From Saccostrea cucullata (taxonomy: Eukaryota): a DNA stretch of 64,000 nt. Shown piece by piece: positions 45,238 to 63,200 of this stretch; positions within the stretch are counted from its first letter, which is position 1; each line of letters starts with the position of its first letter. The position numbers were made by a program. Where the stretch lies: positions 496,001 to 560,000 of the forward strand of contig NW_026936265.1 of assembly GCF_032062105.1 (NCBI RefSeq), written 5' to 3'.

Positions 45238-48200
45238 GGTCACACTAGGTATTACAATGGGGAAATTGGGTAAAGAACGGCATCACTAATGCTGCTCAGG
45301 GGGGGGGGGGGGGGGTCACACTAGGTATTACAATGGGGAAATTGGGTAAAGAACGGCATCAGTAATGTTGCTCAGGTGAGCGATGTGGCTCATGGGCCTC
45401 TTGTTATAAAAATTGCAATAGAATAAAAAAAAGTCCCTCATTTGGTTAGTAAAATTTGATTCGGATATGGTAGATTTTCTCCCAATGAGGGATAAAGGAC
45501 CATTTGGTAGGACTAAGGTTGTGCCCAACCTGTCTATTTACATACATGTACTGACTACACCAGATGTACTATTAATGTGTTTTATGATGTGACCGTTGGG
45601 GCGAGTGCAGTCCTTTATACTGCTTACAGTTGATCCGCCCCATTCAAACCAATCAAACGTCAAACCGCACGACACAGTCTAGACTGTGATGTCACATGAC
45701 ATTGGAATTTACGTAGACAGCCGAGAGTCTGGTTATATGAGACAACATGGAGTTCTTGTCTCAAGGATTACATATGTGAAGTATGAAAGCCTAGCCCTTA
45801 CTGTTCAAAAGTTATGGCCAAGGTTAAAGTATTTTAAAAGTAGGTAAAGCTCCAAGGTCAGGGTCAGAAGGTCAAAGTTGTTGGTATCCTATGAAAGATC
45901 TTGTAATAAGGATTACATATGTGAAGGATGAAAGCCCTAGCCCTTACCATTCAAAGGTTATGGCCAAGGTTAAAGTTTTTTAAAAGTAGGTCAAGGTTAA
46001 AAGGTCAAAGTTGTTGGTATCCAATGGAAGTTCTTGTCACAAAGAATACATATGTGAAGTATGAAAGTCCTAGCACCAACCATTCAAAAGTTATGGCCAA
46101 AGTATTAGTTTGAAATTTTGGTGTTAAAGTGGGTCAAACTCCAAGATCAAGGTCAAGAGGTCAAATTTGGTAAAGAAAGGTTTTGTCACAAGAAATGTAC
46201 CTGTGAAATATGAAAGCCATAGATCCACCCAGTCAAAAGTTATGGGTAAGGTTAAAGTTTTTATGGACAAACAGACAGATGGGCAAAAACTATGTATCCC
46301 CGTATTCATTTACGGGGGCATAAGAAGAAGAAAAAAAAGTCAAAAAATTATGTGAAAACTCATTTTTGCACTAAGGACTATTTTAAAAGCAATCCAAATC
46401 AAATATCAAATACATATTTCCATCAATTTGGTACCTGTATACCATTGTTCGTGCAAACAAATGATAAAATAGCCAAATCAAGATATTCTCACTAGCTTAA
46501 TCAAGCTATATAGCTAAATCAAGGTATTGTGCCAGACATGTTGAGTTAAACAAGTAAATAAAATGACACTTTCAATCTGAATTTAGGAATTGGATGAGAC
46601 TTTGGTAGAGCGATTGATTGGATTAACAGAGATGTTTCCAGAGTCTGTCAGAAATGTGGTTTGTAAAGCAGGATCTCTCTCATGGAAAGCCACACAATGG
46701 GGATTTTCCTTCAGCAAGAGTGCATTATGGGTAGCAATGTCTGCTGGGACAATACTGGTTTTACCAGTTATGTTTGAAAATGAAAGAGCGCAAATGCTAG
46801 ATCAACAAAAACAACAGGAAAAACAGGTATCTCACCAAGTTTTTTAAATAATAATTTTTTAAAACTGTAGCGTGTTTAGTACTTACATTTTTTCTTTTTT
46901 TTTTTACAAAGATAACATAAGTTCTTAGATTAGGTTGTTTTTTGGGTTACATGTATCAATATACTTTAGAAAATGTGTCATAACTTCTGTTTCAGATTTT
47001 ACTGGGACCTCACTCTGCAATGTCTGGGACAGGGATGTACAATCAAGGAATGATGCCCCCTGGCATGGTCCCCCCACCCCCAACTATGGCCCCTCCTACT
47101 CCATCCTCATCTTAACGGAGAATGTCTGTGATTATTTGTTGTGTAAAGGATCAAACTTTATTGTATATATGTTTAGATTGAGTGTGTTCAAAGTGTGTGA
47201 GTAATCATCGTGATAAAAATATATATAAAATTTAAGATATTGTGTTTTGTACACTTAAATGTATGCTCAGCATCATCAGGCAGATTCATTGCAAATATAT
47301 CATTAAATTTCCTCCAGCATGCTAAGAGGTTGGCAGCATGATACTATGGACTTCTCACGGGATCTCCCCACAACTAAGATATATAAGGAGCATAAGGTCT
47401 GTAGCGGTAGATGGGTTCTAATGTTCATGGCCAGATAGTTCAGTTGGTAAAGCACCAGACTGAAGATTTGGTGAGCTTGGGATCAAATCCTGGTCTGGTC
47501 CATTACATTTTCTCCTCTCCCAGTACATTTGAGGCCATGTCATGCCCTGGAAGTGACAGGTGAAAGACCTGCCAAAGAAGAGTCTGGGTTGATGTCTTCA
47601 GGGGGCCATTTTAGGACCATAAGAGGTTCGATCGCCAGTGACCAGATACATTTAGCTAAGGTGGTAGAGCACCTGGCTAGAGAATCATGGGCCAGTATTT
47701 GAATTCTGGTCTTGTCCATCTTATTTTCTTCCTCTCCCATTAAACAATCATGATAAAAAGACGATAGAGCTCAGGTTATTCTGTTGACTGTCAGGTTACT
47801 GATTACCAGTAAGTCTCCTTAAACTTGACCAAGTAAAGCAATCCACAAAGATCAATCACATTCCTATCCATGAACAAGAGATGTTTGTGAAACACTTCAC
47901 ACATTCTAAAACAATTAAAGAGATAAAGTAATGTTGTAAAAATATATAGTATTTTATTCAATAATTTATTGCACAAATAAAATGCATAGAATCAACAAAC
48001 ATACAGCAATGTTCACCATTAAAAAAATGTTTTCTGGAACAAAATTAATATGTCGTATGTATAATGGATTCCATGATGAGATCAGTGATTCTGAGTTGTG
48101 TGATAAAGGAGATTCCCTTGGAGGGTTGGTGTCATGTCTTCTTGGATTTGGATGACATTGCCTTCAATAAATTCCCCACTTTACTGCTACTCTTAGATTT

Positions 48201-60200: not shown

Positions 60201-63200
60201 TTTATTTCTGAAAATTGCACAAGTACATGTAATGTTATGTAAAATTACTGGTATGTACAATTTAATACTTCAGTGACTTATTTTGAAATATTTTTATTAA
60301 CCTGCAACATAGTATTAAGTGGATTTATGTTAATTTGTTGTAGACAGTGATGAGGAATCTCCGTCCTATGCCCCTGAGAATTTCCCCTGTCCTTTAGGTA
60401 TGTGGGACTTAGAGCACTGTGATCCGAGGAAGTGCAGTGGTAGGAAGCTGGGACGGTTAGGGTACGTTAGAACCCTGAGGCTCCAGCAGAGGTTTAGTGG
60501 GCTGATACTGTCACCCATGGGAATCAAATGTGTGTCTCCAGAGGACAGGTGAATGTTGAAATAAAACATTGAAAATGTCACCTGAACTTGTAATGGAATT
60601 AAATACCACCTTGAAAAGAAGAGAATTTATTATTTATGTATATATTATCAATTAATTAGATATTTATATTTATAAAGGAAAGTCAGAGAAACTGCATTTG
60701 GAAGTAAAAATTATTTCTTTATTCCAAGCTTTTACAGGCATTTTAAGTTTATCCTGTTCTGACATGAAATAAGAAAAGAGCTAATTCCTAGAGCTGTTGT
60801 GACTCTATATAGTATATAATTATATATCGTTAACTTTTGTTATTAAGGGAAATTGTGGCTCAAAATGGAGTGGCAGTCATAGATTGTTCCTGGGCCCGTT
60901 TGGAGGACACCCCCTTCTCCAGAATGAGGGGAGGTCATCCACGACTGCTCCCCTACCTGGTGGCTACAAACCCCATCAACTACGGAAAGCCATGTAAACT
61001 GTCTTGTGTGGAGGCGTACGCTGCAGCATTTTATATCACAGGTTATTAAGATCAACAGTAACAGTTTTGCAATTTTCCTCTCCTCATGAAAATAATGAAC
61101 AGATGATAGCTGCATGGAAAGGTAAAGTTGATTTACTTTATTTTGAAGTGCTTACTAATAGTTGTAATACTAAATAGTAGGTTATACAGTACAAGCAATC
61201 CTTGTTCTCTCAAACTCAACAAGGTTGGGGAAAACTTTGGGATATTTAACAATTTCTGACTTGATTACACATATATCTTTGGTATTTCAGATATTGATAT
61301 CTGAGAAACAAAAGTTCATCTATATTTTGTATGGTTCATGCATGAACAGCTTTAGGGTCTCTGAGTTACAACCTTATGAATATATTACAATGGATATTGT
61401 AGGATACAAAGAACTTGGTGATATTTTGTTAAAGAAGTTCAAATGGGGGCACACCTTTTATGAAGTAAATCAAGAATTGCTGGAGAAATATGCTAAATGT
61501 AAAGATAGCACAGAGGTTGTGGCAGCACAGAAAGAGTACCTAGAGCAGTTAGAGGAAGAACACAGCCAACCAAAGCAAGGTAGAAACTTTAATTGTCAAG
61601 AAGTTTTTCCTGTCCTTCTGTGAAATACATGCAATATATAAAGTTCTGCAATTTAATACGTTCAAATTGGTACAAATTTGATTTAATACTGGATAAATAC
61701 ATACCTGTATATACTATTAAATAATAAATTGATGTGTTGGAGTTGGTAAAAATTGGAAATATTTCAAATGCAGAAAGATCAGGAAAAATTGGCTTCTTTT
61801 TCAAATGCATTTATTTACATAATCAATTATATATACTTTTCCCCCACAAGATCTGACAGACATTGATATGGATCTGGAATTCTGTAATCCCAACAGGAGG
61901 GTGGGGGAGATGCCACCTACAGACAGGTATGACACTACACAAGGCTGGAATTACACACCTTGATCTATCTCTTTATCATACAGTGACATACACTCTATAT
62001 GCTGCTGTTGTATACTGTATATGCTGCTATTGTATACTGTAGATGCTGCTATAGCAAATGCTGTGCAATGAACAGAATTATTACTCTTGAAGAAAATCAT
62101 TGAATTAAAGAGAATTTCTTCAGTAGAAAAATTTCATTTCAAAACATTTTTAATGTAACATTTCAGTTCAGAGGAGAGTGAAGAGGAGAGTGAAGAGGAA
62201 GAAGACAAGGATTCTGATGAAGACTGCAGTAAAGGTGATGATGCGTCGAGGGGCATGAAGGGGAGGGAATCCCCTGGATCACAGTCTCAAATGCCGCTAA
62301 AGACAGAATCTCCCCAAACTGACAATGACACAAACGAAACAGGTTAATGTCCAAAGTGAACATTTCTGTTTTTATGTAAATGTTATGTTTATGTAAATAA
62401 AATTTGTTGGTAACTTTGTATAGTTTTCACCTTCTTAATCCCCAGAATGATAAAAAACAGCTTTGATAAATGATGTACATGTTAGTACAGGAAATTATCT
62501 TTCGTAATGTAGTTGTAGTATAAATTAAAACTAGAAATACGTCAATAGGACATGGATGCCCCCAATATACTATTAGTAATTGTATATTAGTAATGCAACA
62601 TGAAAATTTGTATTAGTTTGTGAAGTTTGATAAGAATGTCTTGAATAGTTTCTTTAAAATTCAAATTGAAATTAAAAAACATACGTAATCAAAGATTACG
62701 AAGCTCACCTTGACAAATGTTATCAGTATAAGTAATGCAAATCTTACATAATATTATATAATAGTAAGTGTGCATTCTGACAATTTTGACTTCATGCAAG
62801 TTCTGTTTAAGTTAAAGTCTTGGGAATTGACCTGTTCCAAAAACCTCAACCTGTTCATTAATCAAGAAAATGTCTTTCATTTCCTACATCTGAAGAAAGA
62901 CTGCACTACATCTGAAGAAAGACTGCAAGTCCATCCTTAGATGTGTCATTCATGCAGGTTAAATCACAACAGACCATATGATTAAAGAGCTACTCCAGAA
63001 GCACGGTCTCTCATCTAGAAAATGTAGGTCAAGTCCAGCATCTGAAGCAAGTCTGGTAATGTCCATTCCTAGATGAATCATCCATGCAAGTGTGGTCAAG
63101 AGAGGGCTAATAGTTACTTGGGAATGGACCTGCTCCAAATACTTTAAACTGGTCACTCATCCGGAAAATGTAGGTCAGATTCAGCATTTGAAGCAAGTCT

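What the first reader, a model, noticed from the sequence alone, without database searches (positions are those of the whole stretch)
48132..62347. GNPTG and TSR3 are head-to-head, apparently the same arrangement as in human
Seen: GNPTG (-) and TSR3 (+) diverge, with ATGs at 55977 and 56740; without the MITE and one TSD copy they are only ~120 bp apart. Recalled knowledge: human TSR3 (C16orf42) and GNPTG are adjacent and divergent at 16p13.3 with a very short shared promoter. Inference: a lysosomal M6P-tagging gene and a ribosome-biogenesis enzyme may have shared one promoter since the bilaterian ancestor. That would couple lysosome and ribosome biogenesis, e.g. through MiT/TFE or Myc/USF factors acting at one E-box.
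Basis: partly seen in the sequence, partly recalled or inferred. Interest (0 to 1): 0.72.

Follow-up and report, generated by a model that had tools for sequence, protein, structure and literature searches.

The report
Oyster GNPTG–TSR3 head-to-head gene pair
An oyster keeps a lysosome-targeting gene (GNPTG) and a ribosome-maturation gene (TSR3) back to back on a tiny shared start region, as vertebrates do, which makes this an old but fairly ordinary conserved gene pair, here split by a small mobile element.

Summary
The window is oyster DNA (Saccostrea). GNPTG (- strand, 9 coding exons, ATG 55977, stop 48132-48134) and TSR3 (+ strand, 6 coding exons, ATG 56740, stop 62345-62347) diverge with 762 bp between their ATGs. 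A 620-632 bp MITE-like element (47-nt inverted ends, 89% complementary) lies between two copies of GTCACATG. Without it and one copy, the ATGs are 122 bp apart.

Exon-by-exon searches show the minus-strand gene is GNPTG, not PRKCSH. For exon 6, the PDB GNPTG chain scores E 1.4e-16 and glucosidase II beta scores 0.28-0.35.

Li et al. 2006 list human GNPTG/MGC24381 as a head-to-head pair kept in chicken and Fugu. Gene-order lists place C16orf42/TSR3 next to GNPTG. The vertebrate arrangement is therefore already in print, and the oyster case extends it.

A bilaterian origin is the parsimonious reading. Intervening lineages could not be surveyed, because no eukaryotic genome context was available.

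The reconstructed core has one E-box (GTCACATGAC) between two ATTGG boxes, each 38 bp from an ATG. Relatives' over-long gene models read through this core. That fits overlapping promoters better than a dedicated lysosome-ribosome switch, which stays untested. Interest is modest.

The parts
55881..55977 (-). GNPTG coding exon 1 (ATG 55977; hydrophobic signal-peptide-like N-terminus)
   Evidence: the first 17 residues of P0001 align here, and a GT donor follows 55881
55534..55582 (-). GNPTG exon 2 (a second in-frame acceptor lies 6 nt downstream, at 55578/77)
   Evidence: P0001 residues 33-49 are 100% identical
51474..51608 (-). GNPTG exon 3
   Evidence: PDB 7s69_A (GNPTG) E 1.3e-3, chain residues 31-59
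51086..51169 (-). GNPTG exon 4 (start of the MRH domain)
   Evidence: 7s69_A E 1.8e-10, residues 65-91, the only hit
50842..50935 (-). GNPTG exon 5
   Evidence: 7s69_A E 2.5e-8, residues 93-122, the only hit
50497..50694 (-). GNPTG exon 6 (end of the MRH domain plus a GNPTG-specific stretch)
   Evidence: Pfam PRKCSH_1 5.5e-8; 7s69_A 1.4e-16 against glucosidase II beta 0.28-0.35; 94% identical to S. echinata and O. edulis GNPTG-like proteins
49547..49702 (-). GNPTG exon 7
   Evidence: P0001 residues 216-271 at 86%; no PDB hit
48558..48624 (-). GNPTG exon 8
48132..48241 (-). GNPTG exon 9 with stop codon 48134-48132
55978..56035 (.). Left (GNPTG-side) half of the old core: ATTGG at 56016-56020, 38 nt from the GNPTG ATG; left copy of GTCACATG at 56028-56035
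56036..56667 (.). MITE-like insertion. Clear inverted ends at 56041-56087 and 56614-56660, with subterminal 23-32 nt repeats and an AT-rich interior. It holds 30-31 of the 33 CpGs between the ATGs.
56668..56739 (.). Right (TSR3-side) half of the old core: GTCACATGAC at 56668-56677; ATTGG at 56697-56701, 38 nt from the TSR3 ATG. The segment 56668-56719 is conserved in other oysters.
56740..56857 (+). TSR3 coding exon 1 (ATG 56740)
   Evidence: P0010 residues 1-39 are 100% identical
60344..60548 (+). TSR3 exon 2
   Evidence: Pfam Fer4_RLI 2e-13
60848..61041 (+). TSR3 exon 3
   Evidence: Pfam Ribo_biogen_C 3.4e-30; PDB TSR3 5apg_A 3.1e-12
61403..61579 (+). TSR3 exon 4
   Evidence: Pfam Ribo_biogen_C 9.2e-16
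61851..61926 (+). TSR3 exon 5
62167..62347 (+). TSR3 exon 6 with stop codon 62345-62347 (acidic, serine-rich tail)
58270..58329 (.). Lone fragment resembling the MITE arm, in TSR3 intron 1
   Evidence: (82% over 60 nt)

Best explanation
This is an anciently linked, divergently transcribed pair of housekeeping genes. GNPTG encodes the gamma subunit of GlcNAc-1-phosphotransferase. TSR3 encodes the 18S rRNA aminocarboxypropyl transferase. In oysters the two start codons were about 122 bp apart. The short core between them has no TATA box. It holds one E-box/M-box (GTCACATGAC) between two ATTGG (inverted CCAAT) boxes, each 38 nt from its ATG. In the Saccostrea lineage a 620-632 bp MITE-like element landed at the E-box and duplicated it, so each gene now keeps about 60-70 bp of original upstream sequence with its own E-box copy and ATTGG box. 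In related oysters the transcripts of both genes appear to run through the same core, which means the two promoters interdigitate. A chromosomal break between the genes would then damage one or both promoters. That structural constraint, rather than a need to co-regulate lysosomes with ribosomes, is the most likely reason the pair has stayed together in both molluscs and vertebrates. Shown: gene identities, orientation, spacing, the insertion, the motif layout, conservation of the TSR3-side core among oysters, and the vertebrate arrangement (from print). Inferred: ancestry back to the mollusc-vertebrate ancestor, TSS positions, the roles of the E-box and CCAAT boxes, and the reason for retention.
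For: Gene identity and models. Layout: the ATG-ATG gap is 762 bp, or 122 bp without the element and one repeat copy. The order is ATG, 38 nt, ATTGG, 7 nt, GTCACATG, 21 nt, ATTGG, 38 nt, ATG. No CACGTG lies between the ATGs, and the only TATA-like match (TTTATA, 56503) is inside the insertion, not in the flanks. Insertion: 47-nt inverted ends at 89% and a related arm fragment at 58270. Relatives: the first 14 residues of an unnamed-source oyster GNPTG protein (P0004, from a 2,564-nt contig) translate the homologue of the window's TSR3-side flank plus the E-box, on the GNPTG strand (score 21; 0 of 500 shuffles reach it). Only 9 residues then separate that E-box from the GNPTG N-terminus, so the mRNA has no room for a 632-bp element. 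The Crassostrea virginica TSR3 model P0012 carries a 35-residue N-terminal extension that translates the same segment on the TSR3 strand (tblastn E 0.007; 0 of 500 shuffles). So the same ~35-50 nt lies in the GNPTG leader in one oyster and the TSR3 leader in another. Vertebrates: Li et al. 2006 report the pair as head-to-head and kept in human, chicken and Fugu. Human gene order. Locus tags are consecutive on one contig in 3 of 3 fish GenBank annotations where both tags were visible: Prochilodus NFI96_034184/034185, Ameiurus AMELA_G00071950/71960, Aldrovandia AAFF_G00405350/405360. Molluscs: GNPTG and TSR3 lie on contigs of identical length in 3 of 3 mollusc species present in both lists (Haliotis asinina, H. 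cracherodii, Pinctada imbricata). General background: Irimia et al. 2012 report that conserved ancient pairs are enriched for the 5'-5' orientation and short intergenic distances (passages read).
Against: No TSS, CAGE or RNA-seq data exist for this window, so 'shared promoter' is inferred from the ATG spacing and from relatives' gene models. An ATTGG box only 38 nt from each ATG is closer than NF-Y sites usually lie to a TSS (recalled knowledge), so the real TSS layout may differ. The match of relatives' N-terminal extensions to the GNPTG-side flank is not significant (201, 321 and 245 of 500 shuffles reach the observed score). The empty-site argument therefore rests on the P0004 spacing alone, and in principle the element could be spliced out of an mRNA. 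The 8-bp repeat is offset 5 and 7 nt from the clear inverted ends, so it is not a textbook TSD. If tags follow position, the pair is separated there. 5 of the 17 species with contig lengths in both lists show different lengths (compared by eye); different assemblies could explain this. No arthropod, annelid, echinoderm, amphioxus or cnidarian locus was examined.
Confidence: 0.7

Rival explanations
1. The pair is kept because one E-box lets MiT/TFE (or Myc/Max/USF) factors co-regulate mannose-6-phosphate tagging and ribosome maturation, coupling lysosome and ribosome biogenesis.
For: The only E-box of this type in the reconstructed 122-bp core is GTCACATGAC. It matches 9 of 10 positions of the CLEAR consensus and contains the M-box core TCACATGA; both consensus motifs are recalled, not tested. 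The 10-mer is rare: 3 copies in the window against 0.03 expected, and 0 of 100 shuffles reach 3. The segment starting at the E-box is conserved between oyster genera. CLEAR is described as an E-box in the promoters of many lysosomal genes (PMC8167872, passage read).
Against: There are no binding or expression data. One of the other two copies of the 10-mer (45691) is followed directly by ATTGG, about 0.9 kb upstream of a Tom22 exon. That suggests a general promoter motif rather than a lysosome-specific one. The core is CACATG, not CACGTG. In this oyster the E-box is duplicated and the copies are 632 bp apart, so 'one E-box' no longer holds, yet both genes remain intact. In PMC12314853 (passage read) Gnptg was assayed but is not among the genes reported as significantly reduced. 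None of the passages read lists GNPTG as a TFEB target.
Confidence: 0.12
2. In this Saccostrea lineage the promoter is no longer shared. The insertion split it into two independent minimal promoters, and the element's CpG-rich arms may themselves supply start sites or regulatory sequence.
For: Each side keeps an E-box copy and an ATTGG box. The element holds 30-31 of the 33 CpGs between the ATGs and has CpG o/e 1.45, against 0.57 for the whole window. Its arms are among the top CpG peaks of the window.
Against: No transcript data exist for this species. The S. cucullata model P0010 starts at the same ATG, with no sign of an altered 5' end. This reading is compatible with the best explanation for the ancestral state.
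Confidence: 0.3
3. The adjacency arose independently in oysters and in vertebrates, by chance or convergence.
For: Only two clades are documented as adjacent. Pinctada locus tags are far apart. The downstream neighbour differs: Tom22 here and UNKL in human, so the wider block is not conserved.
Against: My own estimate, not a tool result: two given genes become immediate neighbours by chance in a genome of 20-30 thousand genes with probability of about 1e-4, and less for the same divergent orientation and sub-kb spacing. Hundreds of ancient pairs are known to persist (Irimia et al. 2012, passages read). GNPTG and TSR3 are on same-length contigs in 3 of 3 mollusc species seen in both lists.
Confidence: 0.05
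4. The minus-strand gene is a PRKCSH/OS-9-type MRH paralogue, so the resemblance to the human pair is spurious.
For: The only Pfam hit is PRKCSH_1 (glucosidase II beta-like), E 5.5e-8.
Against: Four of the five exons searched hit the solved GNPTG chain 7s69_A best or alone, and the hits are colinear (residues 31-59, 65-91, 93-122, 124-187). Glucosidase II beta reaches only E 0.28-0.35 and ERLEC1 0.004, both on exon 6. With the closest named homologue (P0001) as query, every one of the 120 listed hits that carries a functional name is called N-acetylglucosamine-1-phosphotransferase subunit gamma or GNPTG; the rest are unnamed or 'hypothetical', and none is called glucosidase II. The model is 329 codons long, the same as P0001, and does not end in HDEL.
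Confidence: 0.01

Closest known systems
Human/chicken/Fugu GNPTG-MGC24381 (C16orf42, TSR3) head-to-head pair (Li et al. 2006, PLoS Comput Biol, PMC1487180)
   Same: The two orthologues, the divergent orientation and the sub-kb spacing are the same (orthology).
   Different: The paper covers vertebrates only, whereas this is a bivalve mollusc. Here the interval is interrupted by a mobile element. The downstream neighbour of GNPTG is Tom22, not UNKL. The equation MGC24381 = TSR3 is recalled, not read. Their Table S6 could not be seen because supplements are closed.
Conserved ancient microsyntenic pairs held by shared or bidirectional promoters, e.g. HSPD1-HSPE1 (Irimia et al. 2012, PMC3514665)
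   Same: This is a 5'-5' pair of broadly needed genes with a very short intergenic distance, present in distant animal phyla (for the class).
   Different: GNPTG, TSR3 and C16orf42 are not mentioned in that paper's main text (0 occurrences). Its supplementary pair list could not be seen. Only two clades are documented here, against many species for HSPD1-HSPE1.
CLEAR element / M-box (E-box class bound by MiT/TFE factors)
   Same: GTCACATGAC has the flanking GTCA...TGAC context and a CANNTG core at the promoter of a lysosome-pathway gene. The consensus is recalled.
   Different: The core is CACATG, not CACGTG. Binding is untested. The same 10-mer occurs at two unrelated places in the window.
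MITEs (miniature inverted-repeat transposable elements), possibly of a superfamily with an 8-bp TSD such as hAT
   Same: The element is short (620-632 bp) and has an AT-rich interior, long terminal inverted repeats with subterminal repeats, a flanking direct repeat, a second arm-like fragment nearby, and an apparently empty site in a relative's mRNA.
   Different: The direct repeat is offset 5 and 7 nt from the clear ends. Copy number in the genome is unknown. No superfamily assignment was tested.

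Membership tests
GNPTG (GlcNAc-1-phosphotransferase gamma subunit) | MRH (mannose-6-phosphate receptor homology) domain | tested here: met
   Pfam PRKCSH_1 E 5.5e-8 on exon 6. Homologues carry PF07915 and PF13015.
GNPTG (GlcNAc-1-phosphotransferase gamma subunit) | Closer to GNPTG than to other MRH proteins (PRKCSH, OS-9, ERLEC1, M6P receptors), including the stretch after the MRH domain | tested here: met
   7s69_A (GNPTG) is the best or only PDB hit for exons 3-6, and the hits are colinear. 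Glucosidase II beta scores 0.28-0.35 and ERLEC1 0.004. Exon 7 has no hit. Named hits are GNPTG.
GNPTG (GlcNAc-1-phosphotransferase gamma subunit) | N-terminal signal peptide; no LDLa or EF-hand modules and no HDEL end (the PRKCSH features) | tested here: inconclusive
   A hydrophobic N-terminus is seen by eye, but no signal-peptide predictor was run. Pfam was run on four exon frames only (exons 1, 6, 7 and 9) and found nothing but PRKCSH_1. The C-terminus is lysine- and serine-rich, not HDEL.
TSR3 (18S rRNA aminocarboxypropyl transferase) | Fer4_RLI-like N-terminal domain followed by the Ribo_biogen_C (SPOUT-like) domain | tested here: met
   PF04068 2e-13 (exon 2); PF04034 3.4e-30 and 9.2e-16 (exons 3 and 4). 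PDB TSR3 5apg_A 3.1e-12 and 5ap8_A 2.6e-10. Named hits.
TSR3 (18S rRNA aminocarboxypropyl transferase) | acp-transferase activity on 18S rRNA | not testable with these tools
   This needs an enzyme assay or an rRNA modification assay.
Head-to-head (bidirectional) gene pair in the sense of Li et al. 2006 | Adjacent genes on opposite strands, transcribed divergently | tested here: met
   No ORF with a family match lies between them; the interval is the MITE plus two short flanks.
Head-to-head (bidirectional) gene pair in the sense of Li et al. 2006 | Transcription start sites no more than 1,000 bp apart | not testable with these tools
   No TSS data exist. The ATGs are 762 bp apart, so the criterion is met unless either gene has a distant non-coding first exon. 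Relatives' models place leaders inside the core.
Conserved ancient microsyntenic pair (metazoan-wide) | The same adjacency in several distant animal phyla | tested here: inconclusive
   Vertebrates from print and locus tags, and one oyster window plus indirect oyster evidence. In other molluscs only same-length contigs were seen. No other phylum was tested.
MITE | Terminal inverted repeats, small size, no coding capacity | tested here: met
   Arms of 47 nt at 89%. Size 620-632 bp. Only short stop-to-stop frames; coding capacity was not searched against families.
MITE | Target-site duplication directly abutting the ends | tested here: inconclusive
   An exact 8-bp direct repeat is present but lies 5 and 7 nt outside the point where three arms begin to align.
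MITE | Many copies in the genome, and empty sites in relatives | tested here: inconclusive
   The window holds one further arm-like fragment. The genome was not available. The mRNA-derived protein P0004 implies an uninterrupted site in a relative.
CLEAR / M-box element | Match to the consensus and binding by MiT/TFE factors | tested here: inconclusive
   9 of 10 positions match a recalled consensus. Binding is not testable here.

The most novel reading that the evidence does not exclude
The single E-box at the centre of a bidirectional core more than 500 million years old is the real shared control point. Catabolic MiT/TFE factors and anabolic Myc/Max or USF factors compete at it to set lysosomal-enzyme tagging (GNPTG) and small-subunit rRNA maturation (TSR3) together. 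On this reading, the Saccostrea insertion, which duplicated that E-box and pushed the halves 632 bp apart, is a natural uncoupling experiment.
Probability: 0.07. Interest if true: 0.7.

Novelty: new member of a known kind. Interest (0 to 1): 0.3.

Why it matters
If the divergent adjacency proves general outside vertebrates, GNPTG-TSR3 joins the small set of unrelated gene pairs kept head to head across animal phyla. These pairs are useful as markers of ancestral promoter architecture. The oyster locus adds two practical handles. First, the core is only 122 bp, with a simple motif layout that is easy to dissect in reporters. Second, a lineage-specific insertion has split it, so species with and without the element can be compared for co-expression. 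The finding also flags likely annotation errors: N-terminal extensions in the C. virginica TSR3 and O. edulis GNPTG models appear to translate promoter or leader DNA. It does not by itself show any physiological link between lysosomes and ribosomes.

Tried and rejected
(1) The listing of cluster members was called to obtain accession numbers as a proxy for adjacency in Haliotis, Pinctada, Latimeria and Saccostrea.

(2) The sigma-70 promoter/terminator scan of the interval found 5 sites against 3.8 expected. It is a bacterial model and irrelevant to an animal promoter, so I discarded it.

(3) CpG-island reading: the native flanks hold 0 and 2 CpGs, and the CpG peaks are the element's arms. I therefore claim no native CpG island.

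(4) Colinearity of relatives' N-terminal extensions with the GNPTG-side flank was not significant: 201, 321 and 245 of 500 shuffles reach the observed score. I do not use it as evidence.

(5) Pfam found nothing on short exons: TSR3 exons 1, 5 and 6, and GNPTG exons 1, 7 and 9. PDB gave no hit for GNPTG exon 7, TSR3 exon 2 or the exportin-like exon.

(6) Extended synteny with human (BAIAP3 or UNKL beside the pair) was not found. The gene tail-to-tail with GNPTG is Tom22, and only repeats follow TSR3 up to 64000.

(7) Literature on TFEB or E-box control of GNPTG: the searches and the passages read gave no statement that GNPTG is a TFEB target.

(8) Literature on the pair beyond vertebrates: searches GNPTG+TSR3 (2 papers), GNPTG+'bidirectional promoter' (1), MGC24381 (1), C16orf42+GNPTG (3), GNPTG+synteny (1) and GNPTG+head-to-head (5) returned only Li et al. 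2006 and human CNV/GWAS gene lists. A broader search led to Irimia et al. 2012, whose main text names neither gene.

(9) The first exon of Tom22 and the 5' end of the exportin-like gene were not located, so it is unresolved whether the 10-mer at 45691 sits in a promoter.

Full report
WHAT THE WINDOW IS. The window is AT-rich animal DNA (GC 0.30-0.39) with no N. One TSR3 exon is 100% identical to the Saccostrea cucullata protein P0010. P0010 maps at 98-100% identity for five of its six exon matches. The window therefore comes from that oyster or a very close relative. Nothing in it was taken for human, and no human sequence was fetched or compared. The human side of the argument comes from papers only.

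GENE MODELS. The joined step (assembling and searching a spliced CDS or protein) was left out. I summed only exon lengths and phases.

GNPTG lies on the minus strand.
- Its ATG is at 55977.
- The nine coding exons are 55977-55881, 55582-55534, 51608-51474, 51169-51086, 50935-50842, 50694-50497, 49702-49547, 48624-48558 and 48241-48135.
- The stop is at 48134-48132.
- All exons have GT..AG borders.
- The lengths sum to 987 nt = 329 codons, the length of the named Saccostrea echinata GNPTG-like protein P0001, which maps colinearly over all of them.

TSR3 lies on the plus strand.
- Its ATG is at 56740.
- The six coding exons are 56740-56857, 60344-60548, 60848-61041, 61403-61579, 61851-61926 and 62167-62344.
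- The stop is at 62345-62347.
- The lengths sum to 948 nt = 316 codons, the length of P0010.

ORTHOLOGY. TSR3:
- Pfam gives Fer4_RLI (2e-13) on exon 2 and Ribo_biogen_C on exons 3 and 4 (3.4e-30 and 9.2e-16).
- Exon 3 hits the solved archaeal TSR3 chains 5apg_A (3.1e-12) and 5ap8_A (2.6e-10).
- 1,075 proteins matched exon 3, and among the 120 listed, the hits that carry a functional name are called 18S rRNA aminocarboxypropyltransferase or TSR3.

Pfam alone cannot decide, since its only hit is PRKCSH_1 (5.5e-8). The per-exon PDB searches do decide.
- Exons 3, 4, 5 and 6 hit the solved GNPTG chain 7s69_A best or alone, with E 1.3e-3, 1.8e-10, 2.5e-8 and 1.4e-16.
- The hits are in colinear order (chain residues 31-59, 65-91, 93-122, 124-187).
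- On exon 6, glucosidase II beta reaches only 0.28-0.35 and ERLEC1 0.004.
- Exon 7 had no hit.
- The exon 6 alignment runs past the MRH domain into a stretch that the other MRH proteins do not match.
- With P0001 as query, 352 proteins matched. Among the 120 listed, every hit with a functional name is GNPTG; the rest are unnamed or 'hypothetical'. They range from molluscs, annelids, nemerteans, brachiopods, echinoderms and amphioxus to vertebrates.
The paralogue rival is rejected.

THE INTERVAL BETWEEN THE GENES. The interval 55978-56739 is 762 bp.
- Inverted arms at 56041-56087 and 56614-56660 are 47 nt long and 89% complementary. They carry nested subterminal repeats around an AT-rich interior.
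- An arm-like fragment lies in TSR3 intron 1, at 58270-58329.
- An exact 8-bp direct repeat, GTCACATG, lies at 56028-56035 and 56668-56675.

When the two arms and the intron fragment are aligned, common similarity begins at GGGTGG. The 8-mer therefore lies 5 and 7 nt outside the clear ends. The borders and the true TSD length are uncertain by a few bases. Because the repeat is exact, any cut within it gives the same empty site.

The reconstructed core reads: GNPTG ATG, 38 nt, ATTGG (56016-56020), 7 nt, GTCACATG, 21 nt, ATTGG (56697-56701), 38 nt, TSR3 ATG.
- No CACGTG lies between the ATGs.
- The only TATA-like match (TTTATA, 56503) is inside the insertion, not in the flanks.
- The native flanks hold 0 and 2 CpGs.
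- The element holds almost all of the 33 CpGs in the interval (o/e 1.45, against 0.57 for the window), and its arms are among the window's CpG peaks.
- On the TSR3 side the repeat continues as GTCACATGAC. This matches 9 of 10 positions of the CLEAR consensus and contains the M-box core; both are recalled, not tested.
- That 10-mer occurs three times in the window (37923, 45691, 56668) against 0.03 expected, and 0 of 100 shuffles reach 3.
- The copy at 45691 is followed at once by ATTGG and lies about 0.9 kb upstream of a Tom22 exon. This points to a general promoter motif rather than a lysosome-specific one, although that site was not shown to be a promoter.

WHAT RELATIVES' GENE MODELS REVEAL. 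Some predicted proteins of other oysters start too early and translate the intergenic core.

The Crassostrea virginica TSR3 model P0012 (360 aa) has 35 extra N-terminal residues. Residues 9-25 match the plus-strand translation of 56669-56719, that is, the E-box and the following segment (10 of 17 identical, E 0.007 over the whole window). In a frameshift-tolerant alignment, 0 of 500 shuffles reach the observed score.

An oyster GNPTG protein from an unnamed source (P0004, 355 aa, on a 2,564-nt contig, so presumably transcript-derived) begins with residues that match the minus-strand translation of the same TSR3-side flank (six consecutive identical residues at 56698-56681). The E-box follows, and again 0 of 500 shuffles reach the score. 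Only nine residues separate that E-box from the GNPTG N-terminus proper.

Two things follow.
- The same ~35-50 nt lies in the GNPTG leader in one oyster and in the TSR3 leader in another. The two transcription units therefore overlap or abut.
- P0004's mRNA has no room for a 632-bp element. The insertion is thus lineage-specific, unless it is spliced out, which I cannot exclude.

A negative result belongs here too. Matches of P0004, P0012 and the Ostrea edulis model P0002 to the GNPTG-side flank are no better than shuffles (201, 321 and 245 of 500). I do not use them.

IS IT THE SAME ARRANGEMENT AS IN HUMAN? In print, yes.
- Li et al. 2006 (PMC1487180, passages read) define head-to-head pairs as divergent genes with TSSs no more than 1,000 bp apart. 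They name GNPTG/MGC24381 among 42 human pairs that keep linkage in chicken and Fugu.
- PMC2780722 (passage read) gives the human order UBE2I, BAIAP3, C16orf42, GNPTG, UNKL.
- PMC8756499 (passage read) lists the same region with TSR3 where C16orf42 stood.
- That MGC24381 is C16orf42/TSR3 is my recall, backed by elimination: the other neighbour is UNKL. MGC24381 occurs in no other paper of the library.

The protein hit lists add independent hints.
- In 3 of 3 fish GenBank annotations where both locus tags were visible, the tags are consecutive on one contig (Prochilodus, Ameiurus, Aldrovandia).
- Those 12 include all 3 molluscs: Haliotis asinina, H. cracherodii and Pinctada imbricata.
- The 5 mismatches are Acipenser sinensis, Arapaima, Scleropages, Conger and Anguilla. 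They may reflect different assemblies.

A possible counter-example exists. The Pinctada imbricata tags are 2,570 apart, which would mean separation if tags follow position.

The wider block is not conserved. Here GNPTG's tail faces Tom22, not UNKL.

WHAT COULD NOT BE DONE.
- Supplements are closed, so Table S6 of Li et al. and the pair lists of Irimia et al. 2012 were not seen. Either may already list this pair.
- The prokaryotic genome collection was not used.

HOW IT MOST LIKELY WORKS. The pair is best read as two housekeeping genes on an interdigitated bidirectional core. Breaks between such genes are selected against because each promoter reaches into the other's territory. This is the general explanation given for conserved 5'-5' pairs (Li et al. 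2006; Irimia et al. 2012).

Ancestry back to the mollusc-vertebrate ancestor is the parsimonious inference. By my own estimate, chance adjacency of two given genes is of the order of 1e-4 per genome.

The Saccostrea insertion duplicated the E-box and left each gene with one E-box and one ATTGG box. This may be why it was tolerated, and it may have turned one shared core into two minimal promoters. The TSS positions, the factors involved and any co-regulation are inferred, not shown.

It has only the motif in its favour. The passages I read do not list GNPTG as a TFEB target, and in PMC12314853 Gnptg is not among the genes reported as reduced.

NOVELTY AND SCORE. The vertebrate pair has been in print since 2006. 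I found no paper whose main text extends it beyond vertebrates. The oyster case is a new member of a known kind, the ancient head-to-head pairs. It has two neat details: the insertion at the E-box, and the mis-extended gene models that expose overlapping leaders. This is solid but not surprising to a specialist, so I score interest at 0.3.

Noticed in passing
window 51935-52943 and 63005-63297: A 147-bp satellite array (6.9 copies, 87% matches) fills part of GNPTG intron 2. Two related 146-bp units lie downstream of TSR3. Their frames give the recurring pseudo-ORFs seen.
   Followed up: partly
window 46587-46847 (+), 46984-47115 (+): There is a Tom22 (mitochondrial import receptor) exon here, Pfam 1.2e-10, tail-to-tail with GNPTG. 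Its first exon was not found. In human the gene on that side of GNPTG is UNKL, so only the GNPTG-TSR3 pair itself is shared.
   Followed up: partly
window 37923, 45691, 56668: The 10-mer GTCACATGAC occurs three times, all on the + strand, against 0.03 expected. The copy at 45691 is followed directly by ATTGG and preceded by CCAAT, between two tandem-repeat arrays. It may be a recurrent oyster promoter motif.
   Followed up: partly
window 16657-17256 (+) and 16396-16519: This is a single-exon interleukin-17-like ORF (Pfam IL17 4.2e-8). A CpG-rich 21-bp tandem repeat (5.8 copies) lies just upstream and is the strongest CpG peak of the window (25 CpGs in 200 bp, o/e about 4).
   Followed up: no
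window 34645-35136 (-), probably spanning much of 24-45 kb: This is an exportin-like exon (Pfam Xpo1 4.2e-5) with no PDB match at E 0.01. Which exportin it is, and where the gene starts, were not worked out.
   Followed up: partly
proteins P0012 (C. virginica TSR3) and P0002 (O. edulis GNPTG), against window 55978-56739: Both public models carry N-terminal extensions (35 and about 20 residues) ahead of the conserved start. For P0012 this is demonstrably a translation of promoter or leader DNA. These are probably mis-called start codons.
   Followed up: yes
window 55577-55584 (-): Two in-frame AG acceptors lie 6 nt apart at the start of GNPTG exon 2. The upstream one fits P0001, and the downstream one would drop two residues. 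Alternative acceptor use is possible.
   Followed up: no
window 44542-45376 and 45855-46100: Three repeat arrays crowd the region between the exportin-like gene and Tom22: a 167-bp tandem array (4.1 copies), a 76-bp repeat that starts with a G-run, and a 133-bp repeat.
   Followed up: no
window 1917-2680 (-): Two overlapping long frames look like a reverse-transcriptase fragment by eye, but Pfam gave no family at E 0.01.
   Followed up: partly
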